Source: an uncultured Eubacteriales bacterium
Lineage (GTDB): Bacteria; Acidobacteriota; Aminicenantia; Aminicenantales; Saccharicenantaceae
Reading direction: 5' to 3'
DNA: 64,000 nucleotides
NCBI GenBank assembly: GCA_964525875.1
Contig: CAZGJS010000008.1
Location: forward strand, 9,556-73,555
Below the pieces are notes generated by a model. It did no database searches, was not told the DNA's origin, and saw only the letters and a list, made by a program, of their open reading frames with translations. Shown here piece after piece: positions 50,017 through 61,348 of this stretch (the stretch's first letter is position 1; every line of letters starts with the position of its first letter). A program made the position numbers and the translations under genes.

Positions 50017-50355
50017 TTAATTAATGCCGACTTCTTTTTCGAGCGCCCTCCGGACCAACCGGTTCAACGATATCCCCTCGCTGACCGACTTTCGCACGGC
50101 CCGCTTGTGCAGGTCGGGAGATACTCTTACGTTAAAAGTTCCCTTATAGGACCTAGCAAGATCCTTGCCGACCGTCCGGCAAAGCTCTAGATAATCTTCG
50201 ACAGCCTCTTTAAAGCTTGTCTTGAGCTCATCCACAGAACGGCCCTCGAAGGAAACCAGGTCGTCGATGCCTTCAATCCTGCCATGAAAGCACTCATCAG
50301 CAGGGCTGAAGTATATGGAGCCGATAAAGCCCTTATGGCGAATAACATTTTTCAT
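50017..50355 (-). CDS. hicB: HicB-family antitoxin
   Basis: An RNase-H-like N-terminus and a C-terminal RHH/HTH region (...GISLNRLVRRALE...). Overlaps hicA. Confidence 0.75.
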   Translation of the reverse strand: MKNVIRHKGFIGSIYFSPADECFHGRIEGIDDLVSFEGRSVDELKTSFKEAVEDYLELCRTVGKDLARSYKGTFNVRVSPDLHKRAVRKSVSEGISLNRLVRRALEKEVGIN

Positions 50356-50612
50356 CGAAGGAATCCTTTCCGCTCGAGTTCCCTCTCAACATCATTCAAC
50401 TGGTAGCGCTTAAGGACATTACTCGGATGCGGCCTATGGAGACGAATGATGTTATTGCGTTTTTCGTTGAAAAAAGCGGCTCGAGATCCGGAAGTCTTTC
50501 CGACCTTCACTTCTTTATACCCAAATCCCTGCAATAGTGTGACGAGCTCGTCATATGTAAAATCCCTGGGTTTCGCCAGGAATCTCTTTATGAGCTTATG
50601 ATGGCGGCTCAT
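50352..50612 (-). CDS. hicA: HicA-family toxin (mRNA interferase)
   Basis: 86 aa with ...LLQGFGYKEVKVGKTSGSRAAFFN... HicA dsRBD-like signature. Confidence 0.75.
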   Translation of the reverse strand: MSRHHKLIKRFLAKPRDFTYDELVTLLQGFGYKEVKVGKTSGSRAAFFNEKRNNIIRLHRPHPSNVLKRYQLNDVERELERKGFLR

Positions 50613-50811
50613 GATTAAGATATCTGAATCACCTTAAGAATGCAACTAAATAATAGTGACATTATTTCAGTCCCCAACTTTCAAACACATGAAAAGACGC
50701 CGCAGCCAGGGCGTTTGTCTCATGCCTTTACCATCCGCAATGGCTTGAATTATTTCTTGACAAGTTCTTGACCCGGCGTTATAGTCAGCCCTCGGAAGCT
50801 TTTGCCGGGGC

Positions 50812-51939
50812 TTGGGGAGAATGGGAAACTTCATTCCTGCGCGTCTTAAGAAGGCCCGTGAAGAGAAGGGCCTAACCCAAGAGGCCTTTGCCCGCGCCGT
50901 CGGCCTCTCCTCCGAATTCATCTCGCTCCTCGAGGCGGGTAAGCGCGCCCCGTCCCTAAATACCCTCGCCCGCATCTCCGCCCATTTCAACCGCGACGCA
51001 TCGTTCTTCCTGGGGGAAAAGGAGCCGGCTTTCACGGTTCTCTTCAGGGCCGCGGCCCACGATCTCAGCCCTGAGGCGCGCCTCGAACTTGAGCACTTTC
51101 AGCGCTATGGCGAGGATTACCTGCGCCTCGAGGAAGCGATGGGCCGCCCCCTGGAGCTCGCCCCGCTCTATTCCGGCAACCTTTCGCCCGAACGCATGGC
51201 TGTCGAGGAGCGCCACCGCCTGGGCCTGGGCGACGAGCCGATTCGAGACATCTACGCCCTCCTCGAGCGCAACGGCTGTCGCATCCTGCGTCGGCCTTTC
51301 CCCGAGAACGTCGAGATCTCCGGCGTTTTTGTCTTTCTCGAGGCTCATCCGGCCGCCTTCGCCCTCATAAACTCGGCCCAAAATGCCTGTCGCCAGGTCT
51401 TCACGGCCGCCCACGAATATTGCCATTACCTCAAGGACCGGCACGACGCCCCGCTTATCGACAGCCAGGAGATCTTCGGTGAAAAGCCCCGGGCTATAGG
51501 GAGACAGGGTGGTTCGCGACTTGTTACTGGAGGTACCAAGCCTAAGAATGGACAATTGACTAACGGGGTGCGTAAGGTTGGACCTGTGGCCAAAGAGCAA
51601 TTCGCCCAGGAATTCGCCGCCCGCTTCCTGATGCCCCCGGCCAAGGTCCGTGAGGTCGTCGACAAGGACTTCGGCTCGGGCCGGCGCCTCACCTACGACG
51701 ATGTCCTCCTCATCAAGCGCTACTTCGGCACGAGCGCCCAGGCCATGCTTAGGACGCTCCGCGATCTCGACTTGATCAGCGCCGCCCGATACGAGGACTT
51801 CCTCTCTCTCGACCCCGTCGCCCGCGAGCGCGAGGTCTTCGGCGCTTCGGCCGAAGAGCACGGGCCCGTCTCTTCCTTCGTCTCCGACCGCTATAACTTG
51901 CTGGTGAGCGAAGACACCGCACGGAGAAAAGCGACATGA
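50812..51939 (+). CDS. XRE-family HTH regulator fused to an ImmA/IrrE-family metallopeptidase domain
   Basis: N-terminal HTH (LTQEAFARAVGLSSEFISLLEAGKRAPSLNTLARIS). HExxH motif HEYCHYL. Confidence 0.75.
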   Translation: MGRMGNFIPARLKKAREEKGLTQEAFARAVGLSSEFISLLEAGKRAPSLNTLARISAHFNRDASFFLGEKEPAFTVLFRAAAHDLSPEARLELEHFQRYGEDYLRLEEAMGRPLELAPLYSGNLSPERMAVEERHRLGLGDEPIRDIYALLERNGCRILRRPFPENVEISGVFVFLEAHPAAFALINSAQNACRQVFTAAHEYCHYLKDRHDAPLIDSQEIFGEKPRAIGRQGGSRLVTGGTKPKNGQLTNGVRKVGPVAKEQFAQEFAARFLMPPAKVREVVDKDFGSGRRLTYDDVLLIKRYFGTSAQAMLRTLRDLDLISAARYEDFLSLDPVAREREVFGASAEEHGPVSSFVSDRYNLLVSEDTARRKAT

Positions 51940-52991
51940 TGACCTTTCGAGACACTCGCCTCCAAGATACGAAACTGCCTCTCTCCACCGTATGGCTTTT
52001 AGAAAGCCTGGCCGAGTCCAAGGGCCGCCAACAGCTTTTCGAAAAACAGTCGCCACAGATCCTCAAGTCACTCCGAGAGATGGCACTTATCGAAAGCGCG
52101 GAATCGTCCAACAGGATAGAGGGAGTGACCGTCGACAAAAGCAGACTACGGCCTCTCGTCTTGGGAAACGCGTCCCCCAAAGACAGATCCGAGGAGGAAA
52201 TCGTCGGTTATCGCCTGGCCCTGAACTGGATTCACGCCGATTTCCAGAAGATCGTCATCTCTCCGGAAACTTGCCTCCGCCTTCACGCTCTAGCCCAGGG
52301 GGGAACGACGGGGGATGCGGGACAATGGAAAAGAACTCCAAACGATATTATTGAGATATCCCCCGACGGGCGACGGGAGGTGCGTTTCCGCCCGGTCGCT
52401 CCGGCGCTCGTTCCCAAGGCCATGGAGGAGCTTTGCCTCGCCTACCGCGACGCTATCGAACAGCTCAAGGTCACCCCGCTCCTGGCCACGGCCGGTCTAA
52501 TCCTCGATTTCCTTTGCATCCATCCTTTCCGCGATGGAAACGGTCGCGTTTCCAGATTGTTGACGTTGCTCGCGCTCTACCATCATAGCCACGACGTCGG
52601 GCGTTACATCAGCTTTGAGCGGGTCGTCGAACAGACAAAAGAAGATTATTATGAGGTGCTGAAAAAGAGCTCCGCCCGCTGGCATGAAGAAGCGCATGAC
52701 TTCCTGCCATGGTTCAACTACCTGCTGACGACTTTGCGCCGAACCTATCGCGAGTTTGAGGAACGCGCCGGCCGGGCTCGTCCCGAGAAAGGTTCAAAAT
52801 CAGATCTCGTAGAATATGCCCTGGATACTATCGTGAGTCCCTTCGGCATCGCGGATATCGAGAGGCTTTGTCCCAACGTCAGCCGTGACACCATCCGCTT
52901 GGTTATGAACCGCCGGCGGAAGTCCGGGAGACTCGAAATAATGGGCCGGGGACGCGATGCCAAATGGCGTCGTTCAGAAGAAAAAGGGTAA
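51936..52991 (+). CDS. fic: Fic/Doc-family protein (AMPylation/phosphocholination-type motif)
   Basis: Canonical Fic motif HPFRDGNGRVSR. Start overlaps the XRE-ImmA stop. Confidence 0.85.
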   Translation: MMTFRDTRLQDTKLPLSTVWLLESLAESKGRQQLFEKQSPQILKSLREMALIESAESSNRIEGVTVDKSRLRPLVLGNASPKDRSEEEIVGYRLALNWIHADFQKIVISPETCLRLHALAQGGTTGDAGQWKRTPNDIIEISPDGRREVRFRPVAPALVPKAMEELCLAYRDAIEQLKVTPLLATAGLILDFLCIHPFRDGNGRVSRLLTLLALYHHSHDVGRYISFERVVEQTKEDYYEVLKKSSARWHEEAHDFLPWFNYLLTTLRRTYREFEERAGRARPEKGSKSDLVEYALDTIVSPFGIADIERLCPNVSRDTIRLVMNRRRKSGRLEIMGRGRDAKWRRSEEKG

Positions 52992-53015: not shown

Positions 53016-55682
53016 ATGGGAATGTCGCAGAAAAACTTCGAAAATCGCAAGTTACGCGCCATCGGCATCGACCTGGGGACGACGAACTCGGCCGCGGCCG
53101 AAATCGTCTGGGACCCGGCCGTTGGGGCAAGCACCGTTTCTCCGGAAACGGCGCGTGTCCCCGGCTTACAGATCCGCACCCTCGAAATCGAACAGCCGAC
53201 GCGCGAGGGTGTCTACACGAGTCCGCTCGTCCCCTCGGTCGTGGCCGTCCTGCCCGACGGCACAGTCTGGGTGGGGGAGGGGGCCAAGCGCCTCCGGGCT
53301 TTCCCGACGGAATACGGTCTATCCTTCGAGAAAAACCTCTTCTACGACACCAAGAACGAGATGGGCCTGCGCAAGACCTACTACCGCGCGCCCGAATCCT
53401 TTAACCACGCCTCGAAGATCGCCGGCAAGGTCCTGGAGTTCATGGCTGGGGCCGCGGCGAAGATGGGAGCGGGCCTGACTGGTCAGCCCTTTCAGCATGC
53501 CGCCGGAGAGCCTGAGCGCGAGAGGGCCGAAGAGCTTTCGCAGACGCCAGACGGGGGGAGAGAGCCCGTCGCCGTCACCGTCCCGGCCTCGTTCCAGATC
53601 AACCAACGGCGCGACACGCTTCAAGCCGCCCGCTACGCCGGCCTGCGCCTTGCCGACGACGACCTCCTCGACGAGCCCACGGCCGCGCTTATCGATTATT
53701 TCGTGTCCGGCGGCCTAGGCGAGGCGCCGACAACGTCCGGGGCCCAGCCCTTCGCCCTCCCTGCCGGCCGCCCGGCGCTCTGCGTCGTCTTCGATTTCGG
53801 CGGCGGCACCTGCGACGTTTCGGTCGTCGAGATTTCACGCCCGTCAGCCCGATCAAGCCGCGAGGAAATGCCAGCCCTCCCTGCCGCCGCCCTAAGCCTC
53901 CTCCCGCCCGCGCTCTCCGGCCTGACCATGTCCCACCTGGCCGTCTCCCGCTACCACCGTCTCGGCGGGGGAGACATCGACGCGGCCATCGTCCACGAAA
54001 TCCTCATCCCGCGCCTCATGGCCGAAAACAAGCTCGCTCCGCTATCCCTCACCTTCGCCCAAAAGAAAAAGGGCCTCGAGCCCCAGCTCCTGGGCAAGGC
54101 CGAAGCCCTCAAGATCGCCCTCTCCTCCGAGATAAACCGCCTCATCAAGTTTGGCCGCTACACCCCCTCCACCGACAAATCCTCCATCGTCGTCCGCCAG
54201 CCGCCTCTCACCTGCACCCTCGGCCCCTCCACATACACCCTCTCCGACCCCTCCCTTTCCGCAGCGGACTTCGAGCGCCTCCTCGCGCCCTTCCTCGACA
54301 CCGACTTCCTCTTTGCCCGCGAGACTGAATACCGCCTGACACTCTCTATCTTCGCCCCCCTCCGCGACGCCATCGACCGCGCCTCGCGCGACGCCTCCGA
54401 CGTCGACCTCTGCCTCCTCGCCGGCGGCAGCACGCTCATCCCCCAGGTCCGCGACGCCCTCCGCGCTTTCTTCCCCAAGGCCCGCCTCGTCTTCCACAAC
54501 GACGGTCTCGAGGCCAAGCTCTGCGTCTCGCGCGGGGCTGCCTGGAACGCCGCCTACAAAGCCCTTGCCTCGCGCCCCCTCATCCTGCCCGTCCTCCACG
54601 ACGGGATCGCGCTCGTCACCTCCGACGGCAAGCTCAACCCGCTCATCTCTTCGGGCACCACCTTGCCCTTCCCCGAGGACGGCTCGTTCCTCAAGGAGCG
54701 CCTCGTGGTGCCGCGCTCGGCCTCCACCCCTGTCCGCGAACTCCGCTTCGAGGTCGTGGGCGAGCTGGATGGCCAGCACATCTTCGATGAGCTCTGGTCC
54801 CTGCCCGAGGGCGTTTCCCCGGGCGACGCGATCATCCTCGAGTACCGCCTGACCCGCGGCAAACAGTTTGAATGCCGGGCCTACCTCGCCGCCCGTCCCT
54901 CGGTCCTCCTTGAGGTGACCGTCGAGAACCCCCTCGTCAACATCGCCAACCCCAACGCGATCCAGCTCAAGATCGAGAAAGTCGAGGAGGACTTGCGCCA
55001 GCGCAAGGGCGGCACGGCCCGCGACCGCGACACCTACTACGAGCTCGCTCAGATGTACGCCGAGCTCAATCAGCGCGAGAAGGCCCTCGACTACCTGCGC
55101 ACGGCCCAGAGCCGCATCTCGCGCCCCGACCCGGCAATTCTCAACCTCCAGGGGATTTACTTCGGCGACCTCGGCGATTACGACCGGGCCACGACGGCCT
55201 TTCTCGAGGCCGACCGGGCCGAGCCTCGCTGGTCCGGCCCGCTCTTCAACCTGTCCTTGAGCTACAGGCGCCGGGGACGTCACGCCGAAGCCCTCGTGAC
55301 GATCGAACAAGCCATCCGCAAGACCGACGACCCCGGCCCTTGCCTGGGGTTCAAATCCCTCTGCCTTGAATCGCTCGGCCTGACCGAGGAGTCCCGCGAA
55401 GTCGCCGCCCAAGCCGTGCGTGCCTTCGACCCACCCGCCGCCCTTGACGACTGGGCCCTGGGCTGGCTGCTGACGGCCGCTAAAATGGCCGGGAATGACG
55501 CGGTCCGCAAACGCGCCGAGGACGAGCAGAAGAATCGCCTCCGCCACACCAAATCGACCCCTTCCCGCGACGACATCCTACGCCCGGCCATAAAAGATGA
55601 CGGCCCGCCTCCCGACGATGAATCCGGCACCGCGGTAAAGCCCAAACCCCGCAAGAAACCAGGGGGAAAACGAAGCGCATGA
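53016..55682 (+). CDS. non-canonical Hsp70-family (actin-fold) ATPase with a C-terminal TPR-repeat region and no Hsp70 substrate-binding domain
   Basis: Hsp70 NBD motifs IGIDLGTTNS, VTVPASFQINQRRDTLQAARYAGL, DEPTAALI and DFGGGTCDVSV. The C-terminal ~350 aa are TPR-like helical repeats. Confidence 0.8.
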   Translation: MGMSQKNFENRKLRAIGIDLGTTNSAAAEIVWDPAVGASTVSPETARVPGLQIRTLEIEQPTREGVYTSPLVPSVVAVLPDGTVWVGEGAKRLRAFPTEYGLSFEKNLFYDTKNEMGLRKTYYRAPESFNHASKIAGKVLEFMAGAAAKMGAGLTGQPFQHAAGEPERERAEELSQTPDGGREPVAVTVPASFQINQRRDTLQAARYAGLRLADDDLLDEPTAALIDYFVSGGLGEAPTTSGAQPFALPAGRPALCVVFDFGGGTCDVSVVEISRPSARSSREEMPALPAAALSLLPPALSGLTMSHLAVSRYHRLGGGDIDAAIVHEILIPRLMAENKLAPLSLTFAQKKKGLEPQLLGKAEALKIALSSEINRLIKFGRYTPSTDKSSIVVRQPPLTCTLGPSTYTLSDPSLSAADFERLLAPFLDTDFLFARETEYRLTLSIFAPLRDAIDRASRDASDVDLCLLAGGSTLIPQVRDALRAFFPKARLVFHNDGLEAKLCVSRGAAWNAAYKALASRPLILPVLHDGIALVTSDGKLNPLISSGTTLPFPEDGSFLKERLVVPRSASTPVRELRFEVVGELDGQHIFDELWSLPEGVSPGDAIILEYRLTRGKQFECRAYLAARPSVLLEVTVENPLVNIANPNAIQLKIEKVEEDLRQRKGGTARDRDTYYELAQMYAELNQREKALDYLRTAQSRISRPDPAILNLQGIYFGDLGDYDRATTAFLEADRAEPRWSGPLFNLSLSYRRRGRHAEALVTIEQAIRKTDDPGPCLGFKSLCLESLGLTEESREVAAQAVRAFDPPAALDDWALGWLLTAAKMAGNDAVRKRAEDEQKNRLRHTKSTPSRDDILRPAIKDDGPPPDDESGTAVKPKPRKKPGGKRSA

Positions 55683-56968
55683 TCACCTGGCTCGTCCCCC
55701 GGCAAGACCTTACGCCCGACCAGGCGCGTGTCGTCGAGCTCCTGCCCACCATCAACCGGGTCGTCCTCGGCATGGCCGGCTCGGGCAAGACCCAGGTGCT
55801 CATCCACCGGGCCGCCCATCTCGCCGAAACCTACCGCATCCCGCCCGAGCGCTACCGGGTCTTCGTCTTCACCAACGTCATCAAGGAATACATCCGCTCG
55901 GGCCTCGAGTTCCTCAAGCTCCCAGACGGTGTGGTGAGCACCTTCGACTTCTGGTGTGTGGACCTTTACGAGAAGCACTGCGGCGCGCGCCTGCCCCGCA
56001 AGCCCAACGGCCGAGACATCGACTTCCCGGCGATCCGCCGCAGGGTCCTGGGCCTTGTCCGCGGCAATCGCGACCTCCAGAACTCGCTCGAGTTCGTCCT
56101 CGTTGACGAAGGCCAAGACCTCAGCCCCGAGGCCTACGAGATCATCTACGAGGCCGCCCGACACGTCACGGTCTTCGCCGACCCCCAGCAGAAGATCTTC
56201 GACGACGGGGCCGAGGCCGGGTTCATTTTCGACCGGCTCCACGTCACGACGCCGCAGATCTCGATCCTGGGCGCCTTCCGGAACGCCATCTATGTTGCCG
56301 AGTTAGCAGCCCATTTCATAGAGGATGGCCAGAAGCGGGCCCAGTTTCTTGCTCAGGTCAGCGCCGCCCAGCGGGTCAAGGAGCGGCCGCTCTGCTACGT
56401 CGCGGATTCCTTCGACCGGGAGATGGACCGTCTGGCCGAAGTCATCCGGGCCCGCCAGGTCCTGAACGAGCGGATCGGCATCATCGTCCCGACCAACCGG
56501 CTTGTCCACGGTTTAGCTGATGGTCTGGCCGAGCGAGGCGTCACGGTCGAGAAGGCCGCGACAAAGGAGAGAGCCGGCAAGATCGAGGTCACCTGCGCTT
56601 TCAACAACCTCGTCCCCAAGATCGCCACTTTCTTTATGGCCAAGGGCCTGACCTTCGACAGCGTCCTTCTGCCGCGTCTCACAGCTAAGGCCTACGACTG
56701 GACCCGCCGCGAGCAGTTGAAGCGGATGATGTTCGTGGGTATCGCCAGGGCCACGCAGTGGGTCTACCTGAGCACGGTCAAGGGGATCGAGTTTGGGGAG
56801 ATGCCTGTGCTGGGAGAGGCTGCCGTTCAGGGGCATTTGACGATGCAGGGAGCAGGGGAGTGGCGAGCCGGGGCAGAGAGAGGGGGAGAAGAGGAGCAGG
56901 AGAAAAGAGATGGCTCGCGAGACTCGGGCAAACAGGAGTTGGAGGAAGATGAGTTTTCAGTGCTGTAG
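55679..56968 (+). CDS. compact SF1 (UvrD/Rep-like) helicase/ATPase, translationally coupled to the Hsp70-like gene
   Basis: Walker A GMAGSGKT, Walker B/motif II LVDEGQDL, and a motif VI-like FVGIARATQWVYL. Its ATG overlaps the upstream stop (ATGA). Confidence 0.75.
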   Translation: MITWLVPRQDLTPDQARVVELLPTINRVVLGMAGSGKTQVLIHRAAHLAETYRIPPERYRVFVFTNVIKEYIRSGLEFLKLPDGVVSTFDFWCVDLYEKHCGARLPRKPNGRDIDFPAIRRRVLGLVRGNRDLQNSLEFVLVDEGQDLSPEAYEIIYEAARHVTVFADPQQKIFDDGAEAGFIFDRLHVTTPQISILGAFRNAIYVAELAAHFIEDGQKRAQFLAQVSAAQRVKERPLCYVADSFDREMDRLAEVIRARQVLNERIGIIVPTNRLVHGLADGLAERGVTVEKAATKERAGKIEVTCAFNNLVPKIATFFMAKGLTFDSVLLPRLTAKAYDWTRREQLKRMMFVGIARATQWVYLSTVKGIEFGEMPVLGEAAVQGHLTMQGAGEWRAGAERGGEEEQEKRDGSRDSGKQELEEDEFSVL

Positions 56969-56992
56969 GGATTAAACAGTAGGAGCGAAAAT

Positions 56993-57598
56993 ATGCTTAC
57001 CTCGAGAGAGCGGATTATAGAAACTCTTGAAACTAGACCAGGCGGACTTTGTGACGATTGCCTCTCTAGAATCGCGGACGTAAAACCGCGGCAACAGGTC
57101 AACATGATCTGTCGGGACCTCCATAAATCCGGAAAACTGAGTAGAGATAAGATGGATTGTCCTGAAGAAAAGAGTAAAAGAAAAAAGATAATCAATAAGC
57201 TCATCGGAGTTGAGGATACATATCCGCCAAAAAAGCCAGCAAAATCGTCCAAGGTTCAAGAAGAAGCAGCACAATATCAACTTGCCTCGCCGAACATGGC
57301 GGGTAAGCTGGATTATATAAGGCGGCAAATTATAACTATGTTGAATCAATTAGATCCGCAAAGACAACAGAGCTCGAGTGCTTCAACATATGAAGTATTC
57401 TCCGACAGGCTACGGAGGCTAGCCGATAAAGGAGTCATTCCCGCGAATATTATGATCATTATAAGAATGCTATGTGCCATGAGAAACGTGGTCGTATACC
57501 AAGAATGCCCACTTGCAGAACAAGATGAAAAGCTCATAGATAATGCATTCAATATAGTCCTAAGTTGGCGGAGCAAAAAAGGAGTATCCTGGCGGTAA
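56993..57598 (+). CDS. hypothetical protein in an AT-rich segment (possible DUF4145-like C-terminus)
   Basis: 201 aa. Lower GC than its surroundings. The C-terminal IIIRMLCAMRNVVVYQ resembles DUF4145-type helices. Weak assignment. Confidence 0.4.
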   Translation: MLTSRERIIETLETRPGGLCDDCLSRIADVKPRQQVNMICRDLHKSGKLSRDKMDCPEEKSKRKKIINKLIGVEDTYPPKKPAKSSKVQEEAAQYQLASPNMAGKLDYIRRQIITMLNQLDPQRQQSSSASTYEVFSDRLRRLADKGVIPANIMIIIRMLCAMRNVVVYQECPLAEQDEKLIDNAFNIVLSWRSKKGVSWR

Positions 57599-57645
57599 GC
57601 AATGAAGACGTAGTGTTCTGTGAACAAGCCAAGGATTAGAGCTAA

Positions 57646-57830
57646 ATGAAGCTCTGGGTCGGGTTAACGGACAACGATTGGTTTGATGTCGTTTCTCATG
57701 TTCCTGGCATCGATGAGGTCAATTTCTGGAAGCCGGGCGGAGGCTTTAAGGCCTTCGAGGCTCAGCAGCTTGGAGAACAGAACATTTTCGAACTTCATAG
57801 CACGCAAAATGAAGAACGCCAGAAGATAGA
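57646..57830 (+). pseudogene. 5' fragment of an HNH-type endonuclease-like gene (N-terminus MKLWVGLTDNDWFD...EVNFW), apparently truncated or frameshifted
   Basis: The conserved N-terminal motif of a restriction-associated HNH family is present, but the frame degenerates after about 60 codons. Confidence 0.3.
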
Positions 57831-58197
57831 GATTCCGAAAGAAACTGGCGGGTCTCGGCGAGCCGGCGAGCGATTTCTTTGGCCTCCTTGTATATACGCT
57901 CGAATTCGTTCAGTTACCTGCGATACCTGTCGCGCGCCTTGTGATATTCGCGGTGCTGGGGATGGGCGCCAAAGTAACTGATGAAGCAGGCGATCGCGAA
58001 GATCATGAGGTTGAATACAATGAAGATCCAACTCGCCATCGCCACGCTGATTCCGACCCTGTGCGGATCAAGGTTGGATCGGAGAGGAAGCCGACGGATG
58101 AAGGCTGTGGTCAGATAAGTTATGGCGGAATTGAAAAAGAATGGCGACGGTTTAACCATGCCCGGAGTGTCACTATGAGTTCGGGTTTTATCTGCAT

Positions 58198-59445
58198 TTG
58201 GCAGCCAGGAGAGCGATAATGGAGGCATTGCGTTCAACATTCACTTGGCTGGACTACTCTGAGCATGAGCGTCGGAGGATGTTGGACGTCATCCACGCAT
58301 TTGATGAGAAGGGTACGCGGGACGAGCTGGGAATCGGTACGATCAGAGACGGGTTGGCGGATCTGCTGTTCCCTGGAACCGGTACGGTGCAAACCCGGGC
58401 CAAATATTTCCTGCTCATCCCTTGGGTCTACGTCGATTTGGAGGCAAAGGGCATTCCTTCAATGGCAATCGCCGACAAGGCCAGGGGGCGGGAAATCGAA
58501 TTGATCGCAGCCTTGGAAAAAGGTGGTGAGAAGACAGGCGGCATCATCGGGATTGAGGCCAGAGCCAATCTACAGCGTTTGCCCAGCAACATATACTGGC
58601 AAGGGCTTGGCGTGTGGGGCATCCGCCGTTTTTCGGGTTCACAGGACCAGTATCACAGGGCTCTCGATGGCTGGTACGAGTCGAAGCGTGACCGTCAACC
58701 AACGGATAGAGGTGAGAACTACGACGATGGGTCTGTCCGCTTGAACTGGCACCCAACTATCCCTGAGCCTCCGGATGGCTGGCGATGGAATACAACATTT
58801 CGTCTTACCAAAGAGGAAGCGCGGTTTCTTCGTGACTGCATTCTGCATTGCACCACAGGCTCCCTTCTAGCTCACTTGGTTATACTCAATCAGCGGCTTG
58901 GCGATGCCGAGTTTTGTTGGGCCAGTGAGAGGCATCGCGACTTCCCGCCCACCAACAGGCAGCAGGTGGCGCACGCTCAAAACTTCTCTGAGTTAATGCA
59001 CGGCGCGGCCCTTATGTACAACCTGCTACTCGGCGAGAGATCCGGCAAATTGGACCTGGAAGCCGGCTACCGCGAAGACATCCTGGCTTGGTCGCAGATT
59101 GTCTTGAATAGCGGCAAAAGGCTGGCCAGCTGGGATACCGGTGCCTTCTGGGCGCTATTCCGGGAACACGGCGTTCGGGTGCCCCCGCGCACATTCAACT
59201 TCGTAAGCGAGTGGATACGCCGTGTGCTTGGCGCTCGTGATCCAGCCAAACTGGCAGATGATAAGCAGGTCCGGCAGCTAATCCGTAATCGGGAGATCGA
59301 ACTCAAGAAAGGACTGGCCCGGTTGGAGAGTGCTCGAGCGCTGGAGCTCTGGAATGGAGCCGCCGGCACCGGCCGGCTCGACTTCCGGTGGCAGGTGGCG
59401 CTGCAGATAGTGAACGACGTTCTCGAGGGCCTAGGCCATGCTTGA
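58198..59445 (+). CDS. hypothetical protein (415 aa), first gene of a three-gene putative defence module (start may be the RBS-supported ATG at 58219)
   Basis: No recognised domain. Its stop overlaps the start of the PLD-like gene. Confidence 0.6.
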   Translation: MAARRAIMEALRSTFTWLDYSEHERRRMLDVIHAFDEKGTRDELGIGTIRDGLADLLFPGTGTVQTRAKYFLLIPWVYVDLEAKGIPSMAIADKARGREIELIAALEKGGEKTGGIIGIEARANLQRLPSNIYWQGLGVWGIRRFSGSQDQYHRALDGWYESKRDRQPTDRGENYDDGSVRLNWHPTIPEPPDGWRWNTTFRLTKEEARFLRDCILHCTTGSLLAHLVILNQRLGDAEFCWASERHRDFPPTNRQQVAHAQNFSELMHGAALMYNLLLGERSGKLDLEAGYREDILAWSQIVLNSGKRLASWDTGAFWALFREHGVRVPPRTFNFVSEWIRRVLGARDPAKLADDKQVRQLIRNREIELKKGLARLESARALELWNGAAGTGRLDFRWQVALQIVNDVLEGLGHA

Positions 59446-61348
59446 ACCGCTAGGCCGCAGGCATCTCTTCGACGCGCTTCGCCCGCCTTCCGGCTATGAC
59501 GTGGATGTGGCCATAGGGACCACGTTCTCAATGGACCTGCTAGCCCTCCTTGCCGTTCCTTTGGCTTTCGCCCTTTTTGACTGGGAGGACGACGAAGGCA
59601 GGGTGAATCCCGATCCCATGGCGTTGCTCGAAGCAGCCCGCCGGTACGCAGGCCGCACACACATTTTCTGCCAGGCAGCCCAGATTCACCTCCCGCGCCA
59701 TCGTTCTAAGCTGCTGTATCATCTTGAGAACATCGTCCACGAAGTCTCACCCCCCAACGACCGTGGGGTATTTCATCCTAAGGTCTGGGTCCTGCGGTTT
59801 GTCCCCTCAGCAAGAGGCGATCCCATCCTCTATCGGGTCCTCTGTCTGAGTCGGAATCTGACCTTTGATCGATCCTGGGACACTTTGTTGGTAATCGAAG
59901 GCGAACTGACGAACCGAGAACGAGCGATTACGGCTAACCATCCACTTGGTGATTTCGTGCAGGCGCTGCCGAAGATGATGGTTCACTCGGTATCTAATGA
60001 ACTCCGGAAGACGGTGGGCCGGATCCATAAGGAATTGCGGCGCGTGCGGTTTACAGTGCCCGAAGGTTTTGACGAAGTCCGTTTTCACGCCCTGGGCTTG
60101 GCCGAAGAGAGCGAGTGGTGGTTCGACTCCAGCTGCGACCAGGTGCTGGCCATGGCGCCCTTTTTGGACTGGGGCTTCGTGAAGAGACTGACGGCCAGCT
60201 CCCCCGGAGCATGCATGCTGATATCACGCCTGGACCAGCTACAGGAAATGAAGCCGAGCCTCCTGGCCGAATGTCAAAAGGTCTATTATCTTGATCCCGG
60301 TGCGGAGGAATCAGTACCGGAGGAAGATGATGAGACCGAACCGCACGGGGCGGCGAATGCTGACGTAGGTGCGCCTAATGAAAACCTCTCTGGACTGCAC
60401 GCCAAGCTCTATATTGCGGATGCGGGCTGGAATGCGAGCGTATGGACCGGATCTGCGAACGGAACAACGGCAGCGTTTTCTAGAAATGTTGAGTTCCTGG
60501 TTGAGCTGACTGGGAAAAGGAGTGTATGCGGCGTTGATGCGTTCCTGAAAAGAGCCCAGGGGCAGACACGGTTTGCTGATATGCTCAGGGAGTTCACTCC
60601 TGGCGATGCACCGCCAGCAGCGGACGAAGATGCACGTAGGGCAGAACAGCTTGCCGATCAGATCCGATTCTCTCTCGCCCGGTTAGGTCTCGTAGCCAAT
60701 GTATCGTCCTCGTCGGATGCGTCTTTCCGCGTAGAGATTGGGTCGGTGACCAAGCCCACGAAATCCAGGCGGCGCGAAGGCGTCTCGGTGCGTTGCTGGC
60801 CGCTGACGCTCGATGAGCGTGAGGGGCTCGAAACCCAGAACTTGCTTGATGGCGGCAAGCTTCTCTTCGCGAAGCTCTCATTCGAGGCGCTCACAACCTT
60901 CTATGCTTTCCACGTCCGGACAATAGTCGGCAAACGCACACATGACGCCCGGTTTGTCCTGAACTTGCCTACGGAGGGAATGCCGGCAGATCGGATGGAG
61001 CGCATGCTGCGATCCATCCTGCAGAACAAGTCTCTGGTTCTACGAATGCTCTTGCTTCTTCTCGCTGATGCAAGCAGCGATCTGTTGGCACGCCTGTTTG
61101 AGTCATCATCCGCCTTCTCGTCGGAAGGTTCGTCGGGCACCTCTTCCGCCCTGGGTGAGCTTGCTTTGCTTGAACCCTTATTGAAGGCATTGGATCATAA
61201 TCCGAGGCGACTTGAGCGCATAGCGCGACTGATTGATGATCTCAAGAAAACAGGCGATGTCGAATTATTGCCACAAGGATTTCTGGATGTGTGGGATCCC
61301 ATTTGGCTAGTGGCCCAAGAACTGACCCATGAAGAAAGCCAGCGATAA
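59438..61348 (+). CDS. phospholipase D-family (two HKD motifs) nuclease-like protein
   Basis: HKD motif 1 is GVFHPKVWVLRF...LSRN. HKD motif 2 is the canonical LHAKLYIADAGWNASVWTGSANGT. Confidence 0.75.
   Translation: MLEPLGRRHLFDALRPPSGYDVDVAIGTTFSMDLLALLAVPLAFALFDWEDDEGRVNPDPMALLEAARRYAGRTHIFCQAAQIHLPRHRSKLLYHLENIVHEVSPPNDRGVFHPKVWVLRFVPSARGDPILYRVLCLSRNLTFDRSWDTLLVIEGELTNRERAITANHPLGDFVQALPKMMVHSVSNELRKTVGRIHKELRRVRFTVPEGFDEVRFHALGLAEESEWWFDSSCDQVLAMAPFLDWGFVKRLTASSPGACMLISRLDQLQEMKPSLLAECQKVYYLDPGAEESVPEEDDETEPHGAANADVGAPNENLSGLHAKLYIADAGWNASVWTGSANGTTAAFSRNVEFLVELTGKRSVCGVDAFLKRAQGQTRFADMLREFTPGDAPPAADEDARRAEQLADQIRFSLARLGLVANVSSSSDASFRVEIGSVTKPTKSRRREGVSVRCWPLTLDEREGLETQNLLDGGKLLFAKLSFEALTTFYAFHVRTIVGKRTHDARFVLNLPTEGMPADRMERMLRSILQNKSLVLRMLLLLLADASSDLLARLFESSSAFSSEGSSGTSSALGELALLEPLLKALDHNPRRLERIARLIDDLKKTGDVELLPQGFLDVWDPIWLVAQELTHEESQR

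What the first reader, a model, noticed from the sequence alone, without database searches (positions are those of the whole stretch)
53016..56968. Hsp70-like ATPase-TPR protein translationally coupled to a compact UvrD-like SF1 helicase: candidate uncharacterised defence pair
The first gene has a full Hsp70 nucleotide-binding domain but replaces the substrate-binding domain with about 350 aa of TPR repeats. The second gene (ATGA-coupled) has Walker A, DEGQ and motif VI of UvrD/Rep helicases in only 429 aa. I do not recognise this two-gene architecture as any named system, and it sits in a TA/defence island.
Basis: partly seen in the sequence, partly recalled or inferred. Interest (0 to 1): 0.7.

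Follow-up and report, generated by a model that had tools for sequence, protein, structure and literature searches.

The report
Hsp70-TPR ATPase plus mini-helicase cassette
Two overlapping genes, an Hsp70-like ATPase whose lid is replaced by TPR repeats and a stripped-down UvrD-like helicase with a conserved docking tail, form a conserved, mobile, unnamed cassette that sits among anti-phage genes, so it is a credible new defence candidate with no experimental proof yet.

Summary
ORF A (53016-55682, 888 aa) and ORF B (55679-56968, 429 aa) overlap by ATGA. One detail is wrong: A keeps the Hsp70 NBD and the SBD-beta sandwich, and only the alpha-helical lid is replaced, by about 200 aa of TPR. B is a minimal UvrD-type 1A/2A motor without the 1B and 2B domains.

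The pair is a real unit:
- The helicase follows the Hsp70-TPR gene in 63 of 70 informative metagenomic loci, mostly with a 4-bp overlap.
- The two proteins co-evolve (Mantel r 0.92).
- A related contig shows recombination breakpoints at the cassette edges.
- Two independent proteins fuse the NBD directly to the helicase.

Every complete helicase ends in a conserved acidic-hydrophobic tail (…DDFSVL-COOH) after a hypervariable linker. The fusions lack SBD-beta, TPR and tail together, which suggests a tail-TPR tether.

Neighbours are defence genes in 42 of 80 loci, against 1 of 80 control dnaK loci. Here they are HicAB, HTH-M78 plus Fic, and complete Azaca. PADLOC has no model for ORF A and no paper describes the pair. 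CoCoNuT CnuD is the closest analogue, but membership fails.

Verdict: an uncharacterised candidate defence module. Defence is inferred from context only, and the mechanism is speculative.

The parts
50757..50785 (+). sigma-70-like promoter (TTGACA-17-TATAGT, 11 of 12 matches) upstream of the HTH-M78 gene. It is the only strong promoter-like site before the end of the helicase gene.
   Evidence: This is a consensus match only.
50812..51939 (+). XRE-type HTH fused to an M78 (ImmA/IrrE-like) metallopeptidase with an HExxH site (HEYCH). Probable regulator of the operon. The likely true start is the ATG at 50821, by homology with MGNFLPERL in L098.
   Evidence: Pfam HTH_3 9.7e-14 and Peptidase_M78 1.1e-7. 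PADLOC RmrA 1.9e-31. Homologues lie directly upstream of the Hsp70-TPR gene in L081, L093, L094, L095, L098 and L152, and with Fic in L169.
51936..52991 (+). Class II Fic protein with catalytic HPFRDGNGRVSR and inhibitory SNRIEG motifs. Its start overlaps the HTH-M78 stop by 4 bp. Optional accessory gene or an independent SoFic-like gene.
   Evidence: Pfam Fic 6.6e-15. PADLOC SoFic 4.9e-33. Motifs read from the translation. Fic recurs upstream of the pair in L091, L102/103, L118/121/122 and L169.
53016..55682 (+). Hsp70-TPR protein, 888 aa. NBD aa 1-518 (nt 53016-54569). SBD-beta aa 525-645 (nt 54588-54950). TPR lid replacement aa 648-845 (nt 54957-55550). Tail aa 846-888, with a conserved DDILRPAI segment.
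55679..56968 (+). Minimal UvrD-like SF1A helicase, 429 aa. 1A/2A core aa 1-~395. Walker A at nt 55778-55792. DEGQD at nt 56105-56119. Disordered linker aa 400-421.
56942..56965 (+). Conserved extreme C-terminal acidic-hydrophobic tail of the helicase (EEDEFSVL-COOH). Proposed docking motif for the partner's TPR or SBD-beta.
   Evidence: All 54 complete helicases end in L, F or I, and 46 of 54 match [DE][DE]x0-1[FYWL]x1-3[LFIVM]$. Right-anchored identity is 0.39 for the last 7 residues against 0.09 for the preceding 23.
57646..57828 (+). Remnant (first ~55 aa) of an HNH_2 endonuclease gene. This gene is full length and follows the helicase in close relatives.

Best explanation
ORF A and ORF B are one conserved, horizontally exchanged two-gene cassette. 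It is most likely a not-yet-described anti-phage or anti-mobile-element module.

Gene A is an Hsp70-type ATPase. It has an intact nucleotide-binding domain, the interdomain linker and the SBD-beta sandwich, and a TPR solenoid takes the place of the alpha-helical lid. Gene B is a bare UvrD-type 1A/2A motor without the regulatory 1B and 2B domains. It carries a flexible linker that ends in a conserved acidic-hydrophobic tail.

Proposed working:
1. In this window the cassette is transcribed with an upstream HTH-M78 regulator and a Fic gene from the promoter at 50757-50785 (inferred).
2. The two proteins are made in fixed proportion through translational coupling and form a complex. The helicase tail docks into the TPR groove, in the way EEVD or PTS1 tails dock into TPR domains, or possibly into SBD-beta (inferred).
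3. The Hsp70 ATPase cycle acts as the sensor or switch that holds, loads or releases the helicase (inferred).
4. The helicase is the arm that acts on nucleic acid. It translocates on invader ssDNA or strips proteins from it. In the window's clade it may have worked with a downstream HNH nuclease that has decayed here (speculative).

Shown: domain anatomy, conserved pairing and coupling, co-evolution, cassette boundaries, gene fusion, tail conservation, defence-island context.
Inferred: physical complex, tail-TPR docking, defence function, division of labour.
For: Pairing:
- A helicase homologue lies immediately downstream on the same strand in 63 of 70 informative loci (L100, L156 and L166 rescued).
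- Of the 60 junctions called, 33 are a 4-bp overlap, 4 are a 1-bp overlap and 18 are gaps of 0-30 bp.
- Independently annotated contigs L085/L086, L168 and L169 show the same arrangement.

Co-evolution: Mantel r 0.92, with 0 of 999 permutations reaching it, on 39 dereplicated pairs.

Cassette behaviour: against L097 the pair is 67-80% identical, DNA from 56994 onward is 89-98% identical, and the upstream side does not align.

Fusion:
- P0322 and P0346 join the family's NBD to the helicase in one polypeptide.
- Both are real genes on separate contigs.
- Neither sequence has SBD-beta, TPR or the acidic tail.

Tail: conserved in 54 of 54 complete helicases, and 46 of 54 match the strict pattern. 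It is an island of identity (0.39) after a 0.09 linker and is disordered in the model.

TPR and SBD-beta are conserved (0.46 and 0.45, against 0.58 for the NBD), not hypervariable as phage-sensing TPRs usually are.

ATPase and helicase motifs are invariant.

Context:
- 42 of 80 loci carry SNF2/DrmD-like, Type IIG RM, HmaB/HmaC, HsdM, Mokosh-like, SLFN-HATPase, DprA-like, Fic or HTH-M78 genes, against 1 of 80 control dnaK loci.
- CRISPR-Cas lies next to L081 and L083.
- In the window: HicAB, RmrA-like plus Fic, and ZacABC.

PADLOC has no hit for gene A, and no literature describes the pair.
Against: - No experiment exists, and the core pair has no recognisable toxin or nuclease, so how it would stop a phage is unclear.
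- Defence is guilt by association. The defence-family probes for the control test were taken from the test loci themselves, so that comparison shows these families are rare at random loci but is not an unbiased enrichment score.
- The loci are metagenomic and some are near-duplicates (for example L118/121/122, L134/142), so counts overstate independent events.
- At least three lineages have the Hsp70-TPR gene without the helicase, so the helicase is not obligatory.
- Tail-TPR docking could not be modelled.
- The family is absent from the plasmid and phage collections and occurs on only 1 of 2.9 million IMG/VR contigs. So mobility is inferred from patchy distribution and mosaicism only.
- The HNH remnant suggests this particular locus may have lost a part.
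Confidence: 0.5

Rival explanations
1. The pair is not autonomous. It is an accessory sensor or regulator module that serves neighbouring DNA-modification or helicase-based systems (Type IIG RM plus SNF2, Hma, DISARM/Druantia-like, or here Azaca), much as BrxHI/BrxL-type accessories serve BREX.
For: - 22 of 37 loci with at least 5 kb of flank have an RM/Hma/Mokosh-like gene within 5 genes, and neighbours lie on the same strand far more often than not (262 + against 106 -).
- All recurrent neighbour clusters are co-oriented with the pair.
- In helicase-less loci an SNF2 gene plus a methylase follows the Hsp70-TPR gene.
- L168 has DEAD-MZB plus SNF2 downstream.
- The window has ZacABC downstream on the same strand.
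Against: - The partner system changes from locus to locus (IIG, Hma, CRISPR, Azaca, or none), so there is no specific dependence.
- L085/L086 have only housekeeping-like neighbours.
- Gaps to those neighbours are 60-200 bp or more, not coupled.
- The L097 mosaic shows the pair exchanged independently of Azaca.
Confidence: 0.2
2. In the window's clade the functional unit is three genes, Hsp70-TPR, helicase and an HNH_2 nuclease effector. The copy in this window is then a degenerate, probably inactive remnant, because the HNH gene is truncated and an unrelated low-GC gene has been inserted.
For: - A full-length HNH_2 gene (310-319 aa) lies 18 bp after the helicase in L089, L091 and L139, 125 bp after it in L169, and one gene further on in L168.
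- Fragments occur in the window (57646-57828), L097, L099 and L100.
- The HNH domain is confirmed.
- This would supply the missing effector.
Against: - HNH_2 was found in only 9 of about 88 sequences searched (87 loci plus the window), all in the branch at least ~60% identical to the window. The rest of the family lacks it.
- HNH_2 proteins with an N-terminal reader-like domain are commonly stand-alone Type IV-like restriction enzymes (general knowledge, not tested here).
- The two core ORFs in the window are intact with all motifs, which argues against decay of the pair itself.
Confidence: 0.15
3. The roles are reversed. The helicase is the sensor of invader DNA ends or replication intermediates, as HamB is in Hachiman. 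The Hsp70-TPR protein is the effector, a holdase that sequesters an essential host or phage protein, or it is a TPR-based pattern receptor for phage proteins.
For: - Sensor helicases paired with an effector are established in Hachiman (abstract of PMC12278908, listed).
- SBD-beta is retained and could clamp client peptides.
- TPR sensors are common in Avs-type defence (titles listed).
Against: - TPR and SBD-beta are not hypervariable.
- The NBD-helicase fusions drop SBD-beta and TPR altogether yet keep the NBD, so the client-binding parts are dispensable in some lineages.
- No toxic activity is evident in an Hsp70 fold.
Confidence: 0.1
4. The pair is a housekeeping or stress module, a specialised chaperone plus a DNA or RNA helicase for repair or RNA polymerase recycling, that merely happens to lie in variable regions.
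For: - Both folds have housekeeping relatives.
- NCBIfam gives weak partial hits to DnaK/HscA and to HelD/PcrA/UvrD.
- L085 has ordinary metabolic neighbours.
Against: - All NCBIfam scores are far below the family cut-offs, for example 77 against 620 and 38.8 against 419.
- The family is rare and patchy.
- The context is variable and rich in defence genes.
- The locus shows mosaic exchange.
- No J-domain or GrpE gene is in the operon.
Confidence: 0.05

Closest known systems
CoCoNuT Type III systems: CnuD (Hsp70-like NBD/SBD plus HEAT-like repeats) with the SF1 helicase CnuH (Bell et al., eLife 2024, PMC11090510)
   Same: This was the only published prokaryotic defence context found for an Hsp70-like NBD/SBD followed by alpha-helical repeats. 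It is encoded near an SF1 helicase and often sits in superoperons with RM-type systems.
   Different: - CoCoNuTs are defined by a McrB-type NxD GTPase (CnuB) and a McrC/DUF2357 protein (CnuC). Neither is in this operon nor among the recurrent neighbours that were annotated.
- CnuH is UPF1-like, with large insertions and OB folds. This helicase is UvrD-like and minimal.
- CoCoNuTs carry HEPN, PLD or Vsr nucleases and the core pair has none.
- CnuD ATPase motifs are described as partly degenerate, whereas here they are invariant.
- Direct sequence comparison was impossible because the CnuD sequences were truncated in the stored supplements.
Canonical Hsp70 (DnaK/HscA/BiP) with TPR co-chaperones (Hop, CHIP) and Fic-mediated regulation (FICD-BiP)
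   Same: - Same NBD, interdomain linker and SBD-beta.
- The proposed logic, a short acidic C-terminal tail docking into a TPR domain, mirrors the binding of EEVD tails to TPR co-chaperones (established knowledge).
- A class II Fic gene next to an Hsp70 homologue recalls FICD AMPylating BiP. AMPylated BiP structures are among the best-superposing PDB hits.
   Different: - The TPR is fused in cis in place of the lid, and the tail sits on a helicase rather than on the chaperone.
- There are no J-domain or nucleotide-exchange partners.
- Scores are far below the DnaK/HscA equivalog cut-offs.
- The context is defence-type, not proteostasis.
Gabija GajB and other defence UvrD-like helicases (PADLOC C3a187 NERD+UvrD, DRT-associated helicases), and Hachiman HamB as a paradigm
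   Same: It is an SF1A UvrD-type motor encoded in defence islands and paired with a second protein. The best PADLOC hits are C3a187 (2.5e-18) and GajB models (1e-12 and weaker). GajB is among the Foldseek hits.
   Different: - There is no GajA OLD nuclease and no NERD domain. The hit covers only the helicase part, positions 199-550 of 559.
- The GajB hits are partial stretches.
- This helicase lacks 1B and 2B and has a unique C-terminal tail.
- Its partner is an Hsp70-type ATPase, which has not been reported for any of these systems.
HelD (RNA polymerase recycling motor)
   Same: UvrD-like 1A/2A core. The NCBIfam HelD hit is 2.8e-10 over the C-terminal half, and HelD is among the Foldseek and PDB sequence hits.
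   Different: The HelD-specific N-terminal secondary-channel arm and clamp-opening domain are absent. The score is 38.8 against a cut-off of 419.

Membership tests
Hsp70 / DnaK family | Actin-like NBD with phosphate-1, phosphate-2 and adenosine motifs and the catalytic Glu | tested here: met
   GIDLGTTNS, DEPTAA, DFGGGTCDVS, LGGGDID and VGGSSLIPQV align to DnaK and are invariant in 19 homologues. Foldseek to DnaK 4b9q gives 8.9e-25.
Hsp70 / DnaK family | SBD-beta sandwich after a hydrophobic interdomain linker | tested here: met
   Beta domain at aa 525-645 in the model. HMMER aligns 'vlhdgialvt…LPfP' to DnaK 'DVTPLSLGIET…TIP'. TM-score (target-normalised) is 0.67-0.69 to lid-less DnaK/BiP.
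Hsp70 / DnaK family | Alpha-helical lid (SBD-alpha), and a score above the curated DnaK/HscA cut-offs | tested here: not met
   The lid is replaced by TPR helices at 648-845. NCBIfam HscA scores 77 bits against a cut-off of 620, and DnaK 71.8 against 648.
Hsp70 / DnaK family | J-domain and GrpE-type partners | tested here: not met
   No DnaJ or GrpE domain among the operon genes and flanking ORFs scanned, nor among the recurrent neighbour clusters.
UvrD/Rep/PcrA SF1A helicases | Helicase motifs I, Ia, II, III, IV, V and VI on two RecA-like domains | tested here: met
   GSGKT, FVFTNV, VDEGQD, VFxDxxQxI, YRN, AKGLTFD and VGIARATQW are conserved. Foldseek to PcrA/UvrD/Rep gives about 1e-14 with query-normalised TM-score 0.6-0.7.
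UvrD/Rep/PcrA SF1A helicases | Accessory 1B and 2B domains, and a score above the equivalog cut-offs | tested here: not met
   The profile alignment to UvrD 4c2u skips UvrD residues ~96-186 and most of 311-567. The protein is 429 aa against ~650-720. NCBIfam PcrA scores 38 bits against a cut-off of 911.
CoCoNuT (Type III) | CnuB McrB-type NxD GTPase and CnuC McrC/DUF2357 protein | tested here: not met
   None of the operon genes and none of the annotated recurrent neighbour clusters in the 80 loci has AAA_5/McrB or DUF2357. Singleton neighbours were not all scanned.
CoCoNuT (Type III) | UPF1-like SF1 helicase CnuH with a coiled-coil insertion and OB fold | tested here: not met
   The best sequence and fold matches are UvrD/PcrA/Rep. 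UPF1 ranks lower (1.1e-11), and the model shows no insertion or OB fold.
CoCoNuT (Type III) | CnuD: Hsp70-like NBD/SBD plus helical repeats, specifically related to the CoCoNuT clade | not testable with these tools
   The architecture is analogous, but the CnuD sequences were cut from the stored supplements.
Gabija | GajA OLD-family nuclease encoded next to GajB | tested here: not met
   No OLD or GajA hit among the window neighbours. The GajB hits are partial stretches at 1e-12 or weaker.
PADLOC C3a187 (NERD+UvrD) | N-terminal NERD nuclease domain fused to the helicase | tested here: not met
   The hit covers profile positions 199-550 of 559 only. The protein starts directly with the helicase.
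Rosmer (RmrT/RmrA) | RmrA-type HTH plus M78 peptidase together with an RmrT toxin | tested here: inconclusive
   The upstream gene matches RmrA models (1.9e-31). No RmrT hit was found for Fic, Hsp70-TPR or the helicase.
SoFic | Fic AMPylase with HxFx(D/E)GNGRxxR matching the SoFic model | tested here: inconclusive
   PADLOC SoFic 4.9e-33 and the motif is present. NCBIfam SoFic scores 43.7 bits against a cut-off of 550.
Azaca (neighbour, not part of the pair) | ZacA, ZacB and ZacC in a row | tested here: met
   ZacA 1.5e-127, ZacB 5.3e-172, ZacC 4.4e-231, which runs off the window end.

The most novel reading that the evidence does not exclude
A chaperone-type Hsp70 ATPase has been recruited as an immune switch. 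Its lid is replaced by a TPR clamp that holds a minimal UvrD-like motor by an EEVD/PTS1-like C-terminal tail. ATP-driven Hsp70 allostery, optionally tuned by a neighbouring Fic AMPylase as FICD tunes BiP, licenses the helicase against invading nucleic acid. This would be a defence mechanism with no described precedent. It would also be a prokaryotic counterpart of the Hsp70-TPR and Fic-Hsp70 wiring known from eukaryotes.
Probability: 0.2. Interest if true: 0.85.

Novelty: new variant of a known kind. Interest (0 to 1): 0.7.

Why it matters
If the pair defends against phages or plasmids, it adds the Hsp70 fold to the small set of ATPase switches used in prokaryotic immunity (STAND, AAA+, ABC, SMC-like, McrB). 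The proposed control principle would also be new for defence systems: a motor tethered by a short C-terminal tail to a TPR domain that sits where the Hsp70 lid should be. The natural NBD-helicase fusions and the tail motif give direct, cheap experimental handles. The recurrent Fic neighbour raises the possibility that Fic-Hsp70 regulation, known from FICD-BiP in animals, has a bacterial counterpart. On the practical side, neither gene is recognised as a system by PADLOC 2.0, so islands like this one are under-annotated, especially in Acidobacteriota and Desulfobacterota.

Tried and rejected
1. The genome-contig scan with the full-length alignment A1 was wasted. The tool chose the universal Hsp70 peptide IDLGTTNS and returned 80 canonical dnaK loci at 24-28% identity. 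I reused them as a negative control.
Model coordinates are not exposed, so neither the docking site of the helicase tail nor that of the Hsp70-TPR tail segment could be determined.
3. CnuD sequences for a direct comparison were not in the stored supplements.
4. tblastn against the plasmid and phage collections gave no match. IMG/VR gave one truncated contig. So there is no evidence that the pair is carried by known mobile elements.
5. I considered and rejected CoCoNuT, Gabija, NERD-UvrD and HelD membership (see the membership test), and a housekeeping DnaK/HscA or UvrD/PcrA identity.
6. I considered the TPR as a hypervariable phage sensor. It is not favoured, because its identity is 0.46 against 0.58 for the NBD.
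7. A helicase-tail-like ending on helicase-less Hsp70-TPR proteins (…KKAMFDF, …QDEFSF) looked attractive as 'tail in cis'. It rests on about two independent events, and P0114, P0097 and L144 lack it, so I treat it only as a hint.
8. My crude ORF picker missed the helicase in L100, L156 and L166. I corrected these from the tblastn table.

Full report
**What is in the sequence**

Two ORFs lie on the + strand at the stated coordinates: A at 53016-55682 (888 aa) and B at 55679-56968 (429 aa). The stop of A and the start of B overlap as ATGA, and a GGGGGA run lies about 12 nt upstream.

A matches Pfam HSP70 (3.8e-22) and several TPR models around aa 660-800. B matches UvrD-helicase, AAA_19 and UvrD_C. 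PADLOC has no model that hits A. B gets only partial hits to the helicase part of C3a187 (NERD+UvrD) and to GajB models. All NCBIfam hits to DnaK/HscA and to PcrA/UvrD/Rep/HelD are far below the curated cut-offs.

**Anatomy of A**

- A 19-sequence alignment (A1) gave an AlphaFold model with pLDDT 81.8 and pTM 0.77.
- The model has an NBD (aa 1-518) with two low-confidence insertions, a beta-rich domain (525-645), eleven TPR-type helices (648-845) and a mostly disordered tail.
- Foldseek finds full-length DnaK first (4b9q, 8.9e-25). It superposes best (target-normalised TM-score 0.67-0.69) on lid-truncated DnaK and on BiP, including AMPylated BiP and FICD-BiP complexes.
- A profile search of PDB sequences aligns GIDLGTTNS, DEPTAA, DFGGGTCDVS, LGGGDID and VGGSSLIPQV to the DnaK ATPase motifs. 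The alignment continues through the interdomain linker into the first SBD-beta strands. These motifs are invariant in the family.
SBD-beta is kept, and about 200 aa of TPR replace only the alpha-helical lid.

**Anatomy of B**

- All SF1A motifs are conserved in 20 homologues (A3).
- The profile alignment to D. radiodurans UvrD pairs profile positions 26-92 with UvrD 27-95, 107-221 with 187-311, and 315-370 with 567-630. The 1B domain and the 2B domain have no counterpart.
- The model (pLDDT 81.2) shows two RecA-like domains and a disordered end from aa 400. The top Foldseek hits are PcrA, UvrD and Rep.
- The last residues form a conserved acidic-hydrophobic tail after a hypervariable linker. 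All 54 complete helicases end in L, F or I, and 46 of 54 match [DE][DE]x0-1[FYWL]x1-3[LFIVM]$. The subtypes are DDFSVL, DDDYDAPF and DDxxDLL.
- Right-anchored identity is 0.39 for the last seven residues against 0.09 for the preceding 23.

**Is the pair a unit?**

Both proteins have well-populated families of constant length, about 800 aa and about 410-430 aa. At least 26 of the 120 listed Hsp70-TPR clusters share an exact contig length with a listed helicase cluster.

My first genome scan was wasted on canonical dnaK. A metagenome scan with a family-specific sub-alignment (A2) then returned 80 true loci. Results from these loci:

- **Adjacency:** a helicase homologue lies immediately downstream on the same strand in 63 of the 70 loci that have enough downstream DNA (three crude gene-calling misses corrected).
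- **Coupling:** of the 60 junctions called, 33 are a 4-bp overlap, 4 are a 1-bp overlap and 18 are gaps of 0-30 bp.
- **Independent annotation:** contigs with their own gene calls show the same arrangement (L085/L086, L168, L169).
- **Co-evolution:** pairwise distances of the two proteins correlate at r = 0.92, with 0 of 999 Mantel permutations reaching that value (39 dereplicated pairs).
- **Cassette boundaries:** against L097 the pair is 67-80% identical at the DNA level, everything from 56994 onward is 89-98% identical, and the upstream side does not align. The break coincides with the helicase stop codon.
- **Family size:** an exhaustive profile search of 1.84 billion representatives found 235 family members at E ≤ 1e-30, and the 150 listed all score below 1e-49.
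- **Gene fusion:** two of these, P0322 and P0346, are single polypeptides. The family's NBD (32% identity, 2e-51 to the window protein; hhalign probability 100) is joined at its C-terminal end to the helicase (40% identity, 2e-76). Both are real genes on separate contigs. They lack SBD-beta, TPR and the acidic tail simultaneously.

The fusion is classical Rosetta-stone evidence that the NBD and the helicase work together physically. The joint loss of TPR/SBD-beta and tail is what one expects if those elements are the non-covalent tether.

**Exceptions**

Seven informative loci, plus D. oleivorans (L081) and L083, have the Hsp70-TPR gene without the helicase. On a neighbour-joining tree they fall in at least three places. 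In the largest such clade a REC-TPR gene precedes the Hsp70-TPR gene, and in L134, L138, L142 and L144 an SNF2 gene follows, with a methylase after it in L134 and L142. There the Hsp70-TPR protein itself ends in …KKAMFDF, and in L154 it ends in …QDEFSF. This may be a tail in cis, but it rests on about two independent events.

**Context**

*In the window:*
- Housekeeping genes (alanine racemase, GreA/Rnk-like) end near 49.9 kb.
- Then come HicB and HicA.
- Next is a run of closely spaced + strand genes: HTH-M78 (RmrA-like, 1.9e-31), Fic (SoFic-like, 4.9e-33; start overlaps the HTH-M78 stop by 4 bp), A after a 24-bp gap, and B overlapping A by 4 bp.
- After B come a 201-aa gene with no family match in a region of 46% GC, an HNH_2 remnant, and a complete Azaca system ZacABC.
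- The only strong sigma-70-like site is upstream of HTH-M78 (50757-50785). No convincing terminator precedes the end of B. This suggests a four-gene operon, on consensus evidence only.

*Across the 80 loci:*
- The recurrent neighbour clusters are SNF2/DrmD-like, Type IIG REase-MTase, HmaB, HmaC (HEPN_Swt1 plus DUF499), HsdM, Mokosh-like helicases, SLFN_AlbA_2-HATPase_c_4, DprA/PsyrA-like, Fic, HTH-M78 and REC-TPR. All are on the same strand as the pair.
- L081 and L083 abut CRISPR-Cas.
- L168 and L169 add PIN, AbiEii, AAA_14-DUF4143 (PADLOC PDC-S01), DEAD-MZB plus SNF2, an Eco57I-type methylase and GmrSD.
- Probes from these neighbour families hit 42 of 80 Hsp70-TPR loci but only 1 of 80 dnaK control loci (1.11 Mb). 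The probes came from the test set, so this shows that the families are rare at random loci. It is not an unbiased score.
- The family is absent from the plasmid and phage collections and nearly absent from IMG/VR.

**A possible third gene**

A full-length HNH_2 endonuclease gene follows the helicase after 18 bp in L089, L091 and L139, after 125 bp in L169, and one gene later in L168. The window, L097, L099 and L100 hold only fragments. This is confined to the branch closest to the window.

**Most likely mechanism**

I commit to the following, with the steps marked.

- **Shown:** an intact Hsp70-type ATPase with SBD-beta and a TPR in place of the lid. A minimal UvrD-type motor with a conserved C-terminal tail. 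Obligate-looking pairing, coupling, co-evolution and fusion.
- **Inferred:** the two proteins form a complex. The tail docks into the TPR groove, as EEVD tails of Hsp70/Hsp90 dock into Hop or CHIP and PTS1 tails into PEX5 (established knowledge), or else into SBD-beta. The Hsp70 nucleotide cycle gates the helicase, which lacks its own 2B regulatory domain. The helicase acts on invader ssDNA or on protein-DNA complexes.
- **Speculative:** the HTH-M78 protein derepresses the operon on an infection or damage cue, as ImmA/IrrE/CapP-type peptidases do. Fic modifies the Hsp70-like protein as FICD modifies BiP. HNH_2 was the nuclease effector in this clade.

I put about 0.5 on 'autonomous or semi-autonomous defence module built on a physical Hsp70-helicase complex', and about 0.2 on the specific tail-TPR-gated mechanism.

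**Comparison with what is known**

The only published link I found between Hsp70-like proteins and prokaryotic defence is CnuD of Type III CoCoNuTs, an NBD/SBD plus HEAT-like repeats encoded with an SF1 helicase. This pair works with analogous parts but is not a CoCoNuT: there is no McrB- or McrC-type gene, the helicase is UvrD-like rather than UPF1-like, and there is no HEPN, PLD or Vsr nuclease. Gabija, NERD-UvrD and HelD each fail a defining feature. Kaur et al. 2020 describe HSP70 with tubulin and GTPases, which is a different architecture. Five literature searches found no description of this pair. The searchable library is incomplete, and PADLOC-DB 2.0.0 dates from 2023.

**Verdict**

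I class it as a new variant of a known kind, a defence-island ATPase-helicase cassette with unprecedented parts. There is a modest chance that the mechanism is categorically new. Interest 0.7.

Noticed in passing
window 57646-57828 (inside ORF 57646..57981, +): N-terminal remnant (~55 aa, 69% identical to L168:12808-13740) of an HNH_2 endonuclease gene. The full-length gene follows the helicase in L089, L091, L139 and L169, and lies one gene further on in L168. Further fragments occur in L097, L099 and L100.
   Followed up: yes
window 56993-57598 (+): A 201-aa ORF with no Pfam, NCBIfam or PADLOC hit, in a region of 46% GC (window 57001-58000) against ~66% across most of the pair. It sits between the helicase and the HNH remnant. 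A copy with 95% protein identity occupies the same place in L097, although the Hsp70-helicase pair there is only ~70% identical.
   Followed up: partly
window 53094-63892 versus L097: Mosaic similarity: 67-80% nucleotide identity over the pair, 89-98% from 56994 onward (U201 plus Azaca), and no alignment upstream. The cassette appears to have been exchanged at a fixed island position.
   Followed up: yes
window 58198-64000 (+): Complete Azaca system: ZacA 58198-59445, ZacB 59438-61348, and ZacC from 61329 running off the window end.
   Followed up: yes
window 50017-50612 (-): HicB (50017-50355) and HicA (50352-50612) toxin-antitoxin pair at the left edge of the island. Alanine racemase and a GreA/Rnk-like gene lie just upstream.
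   Followed up: partly
window 50812-52991 (+); L169 6175-8494: HTH-M78 followed by Fic recurs as a tightly linked pair (4-bp overlap here, 1-bp gap in L169) upstream of the Hsp70-TPR cassette. With AMPylated BiP and FICD-BiP among the best structural matches of gene A, this raises the idea that Fic regulates the Hsp70-like protein. It could equally be an independent Rosmer-like or SoFic-like module.
   Followed up: partly
P0322 (L170 5484-8012) and P0346 (L171 65-2695): Natural fusions of the family's Hsp70-like NBD to the compact helicase, without SBD-beta, TPR or the acidic tail. Some NBD motifs are degenerate in them (GIDLGAGHS, VVDLGATACQ).
   Followed up: yes
L134, L136, L138, L140, L142, L144, L154; L081; L083: Helicase-less Hsp70-TPR genes in at least three lineages. 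The main clade has a REC-TPR response-regulator gene upstream. An SNF2 gene follows in L134, L138, L142 and L144, with a methylase after it in L134 and L142. There the Hsp70-TPR protein ends in …KKAMFDF (…QDEFSF in L154), resembling the helicase tail.
   Followed up: partly
window 55569-55595 (aa 852-860 of gene A): A conserved short motif in the otherwise disordered tail of the Hsp70-TPR protein (DDILRPAIK here; LPxIKGGL or VLPIxTxGL in other clades). In the model it has pLDDT of about 81 and a beta-strand, so it seems docked somewhere, possibly as a pseudo-substrate in SBD-beta. The site could not be determined.
   Followed up: no
L081 12436-12762 (D. oleivorans, downstream of its Hsp70-TPR gene): A tandemly repeated unit that translates as IRHCEERSDEAIPSAP (three copies) lies between the Hsp70-TPR gene and the type I-E cas3 gene. 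It looks like a repetitive intergenic element.
   Followed up: no
window 54001-55000: The most extreme GC skew in the window (-0.31) falls inside the Hsp70-TPR gene, whose coding strand is strongly C-rich there.
   Followed up: no
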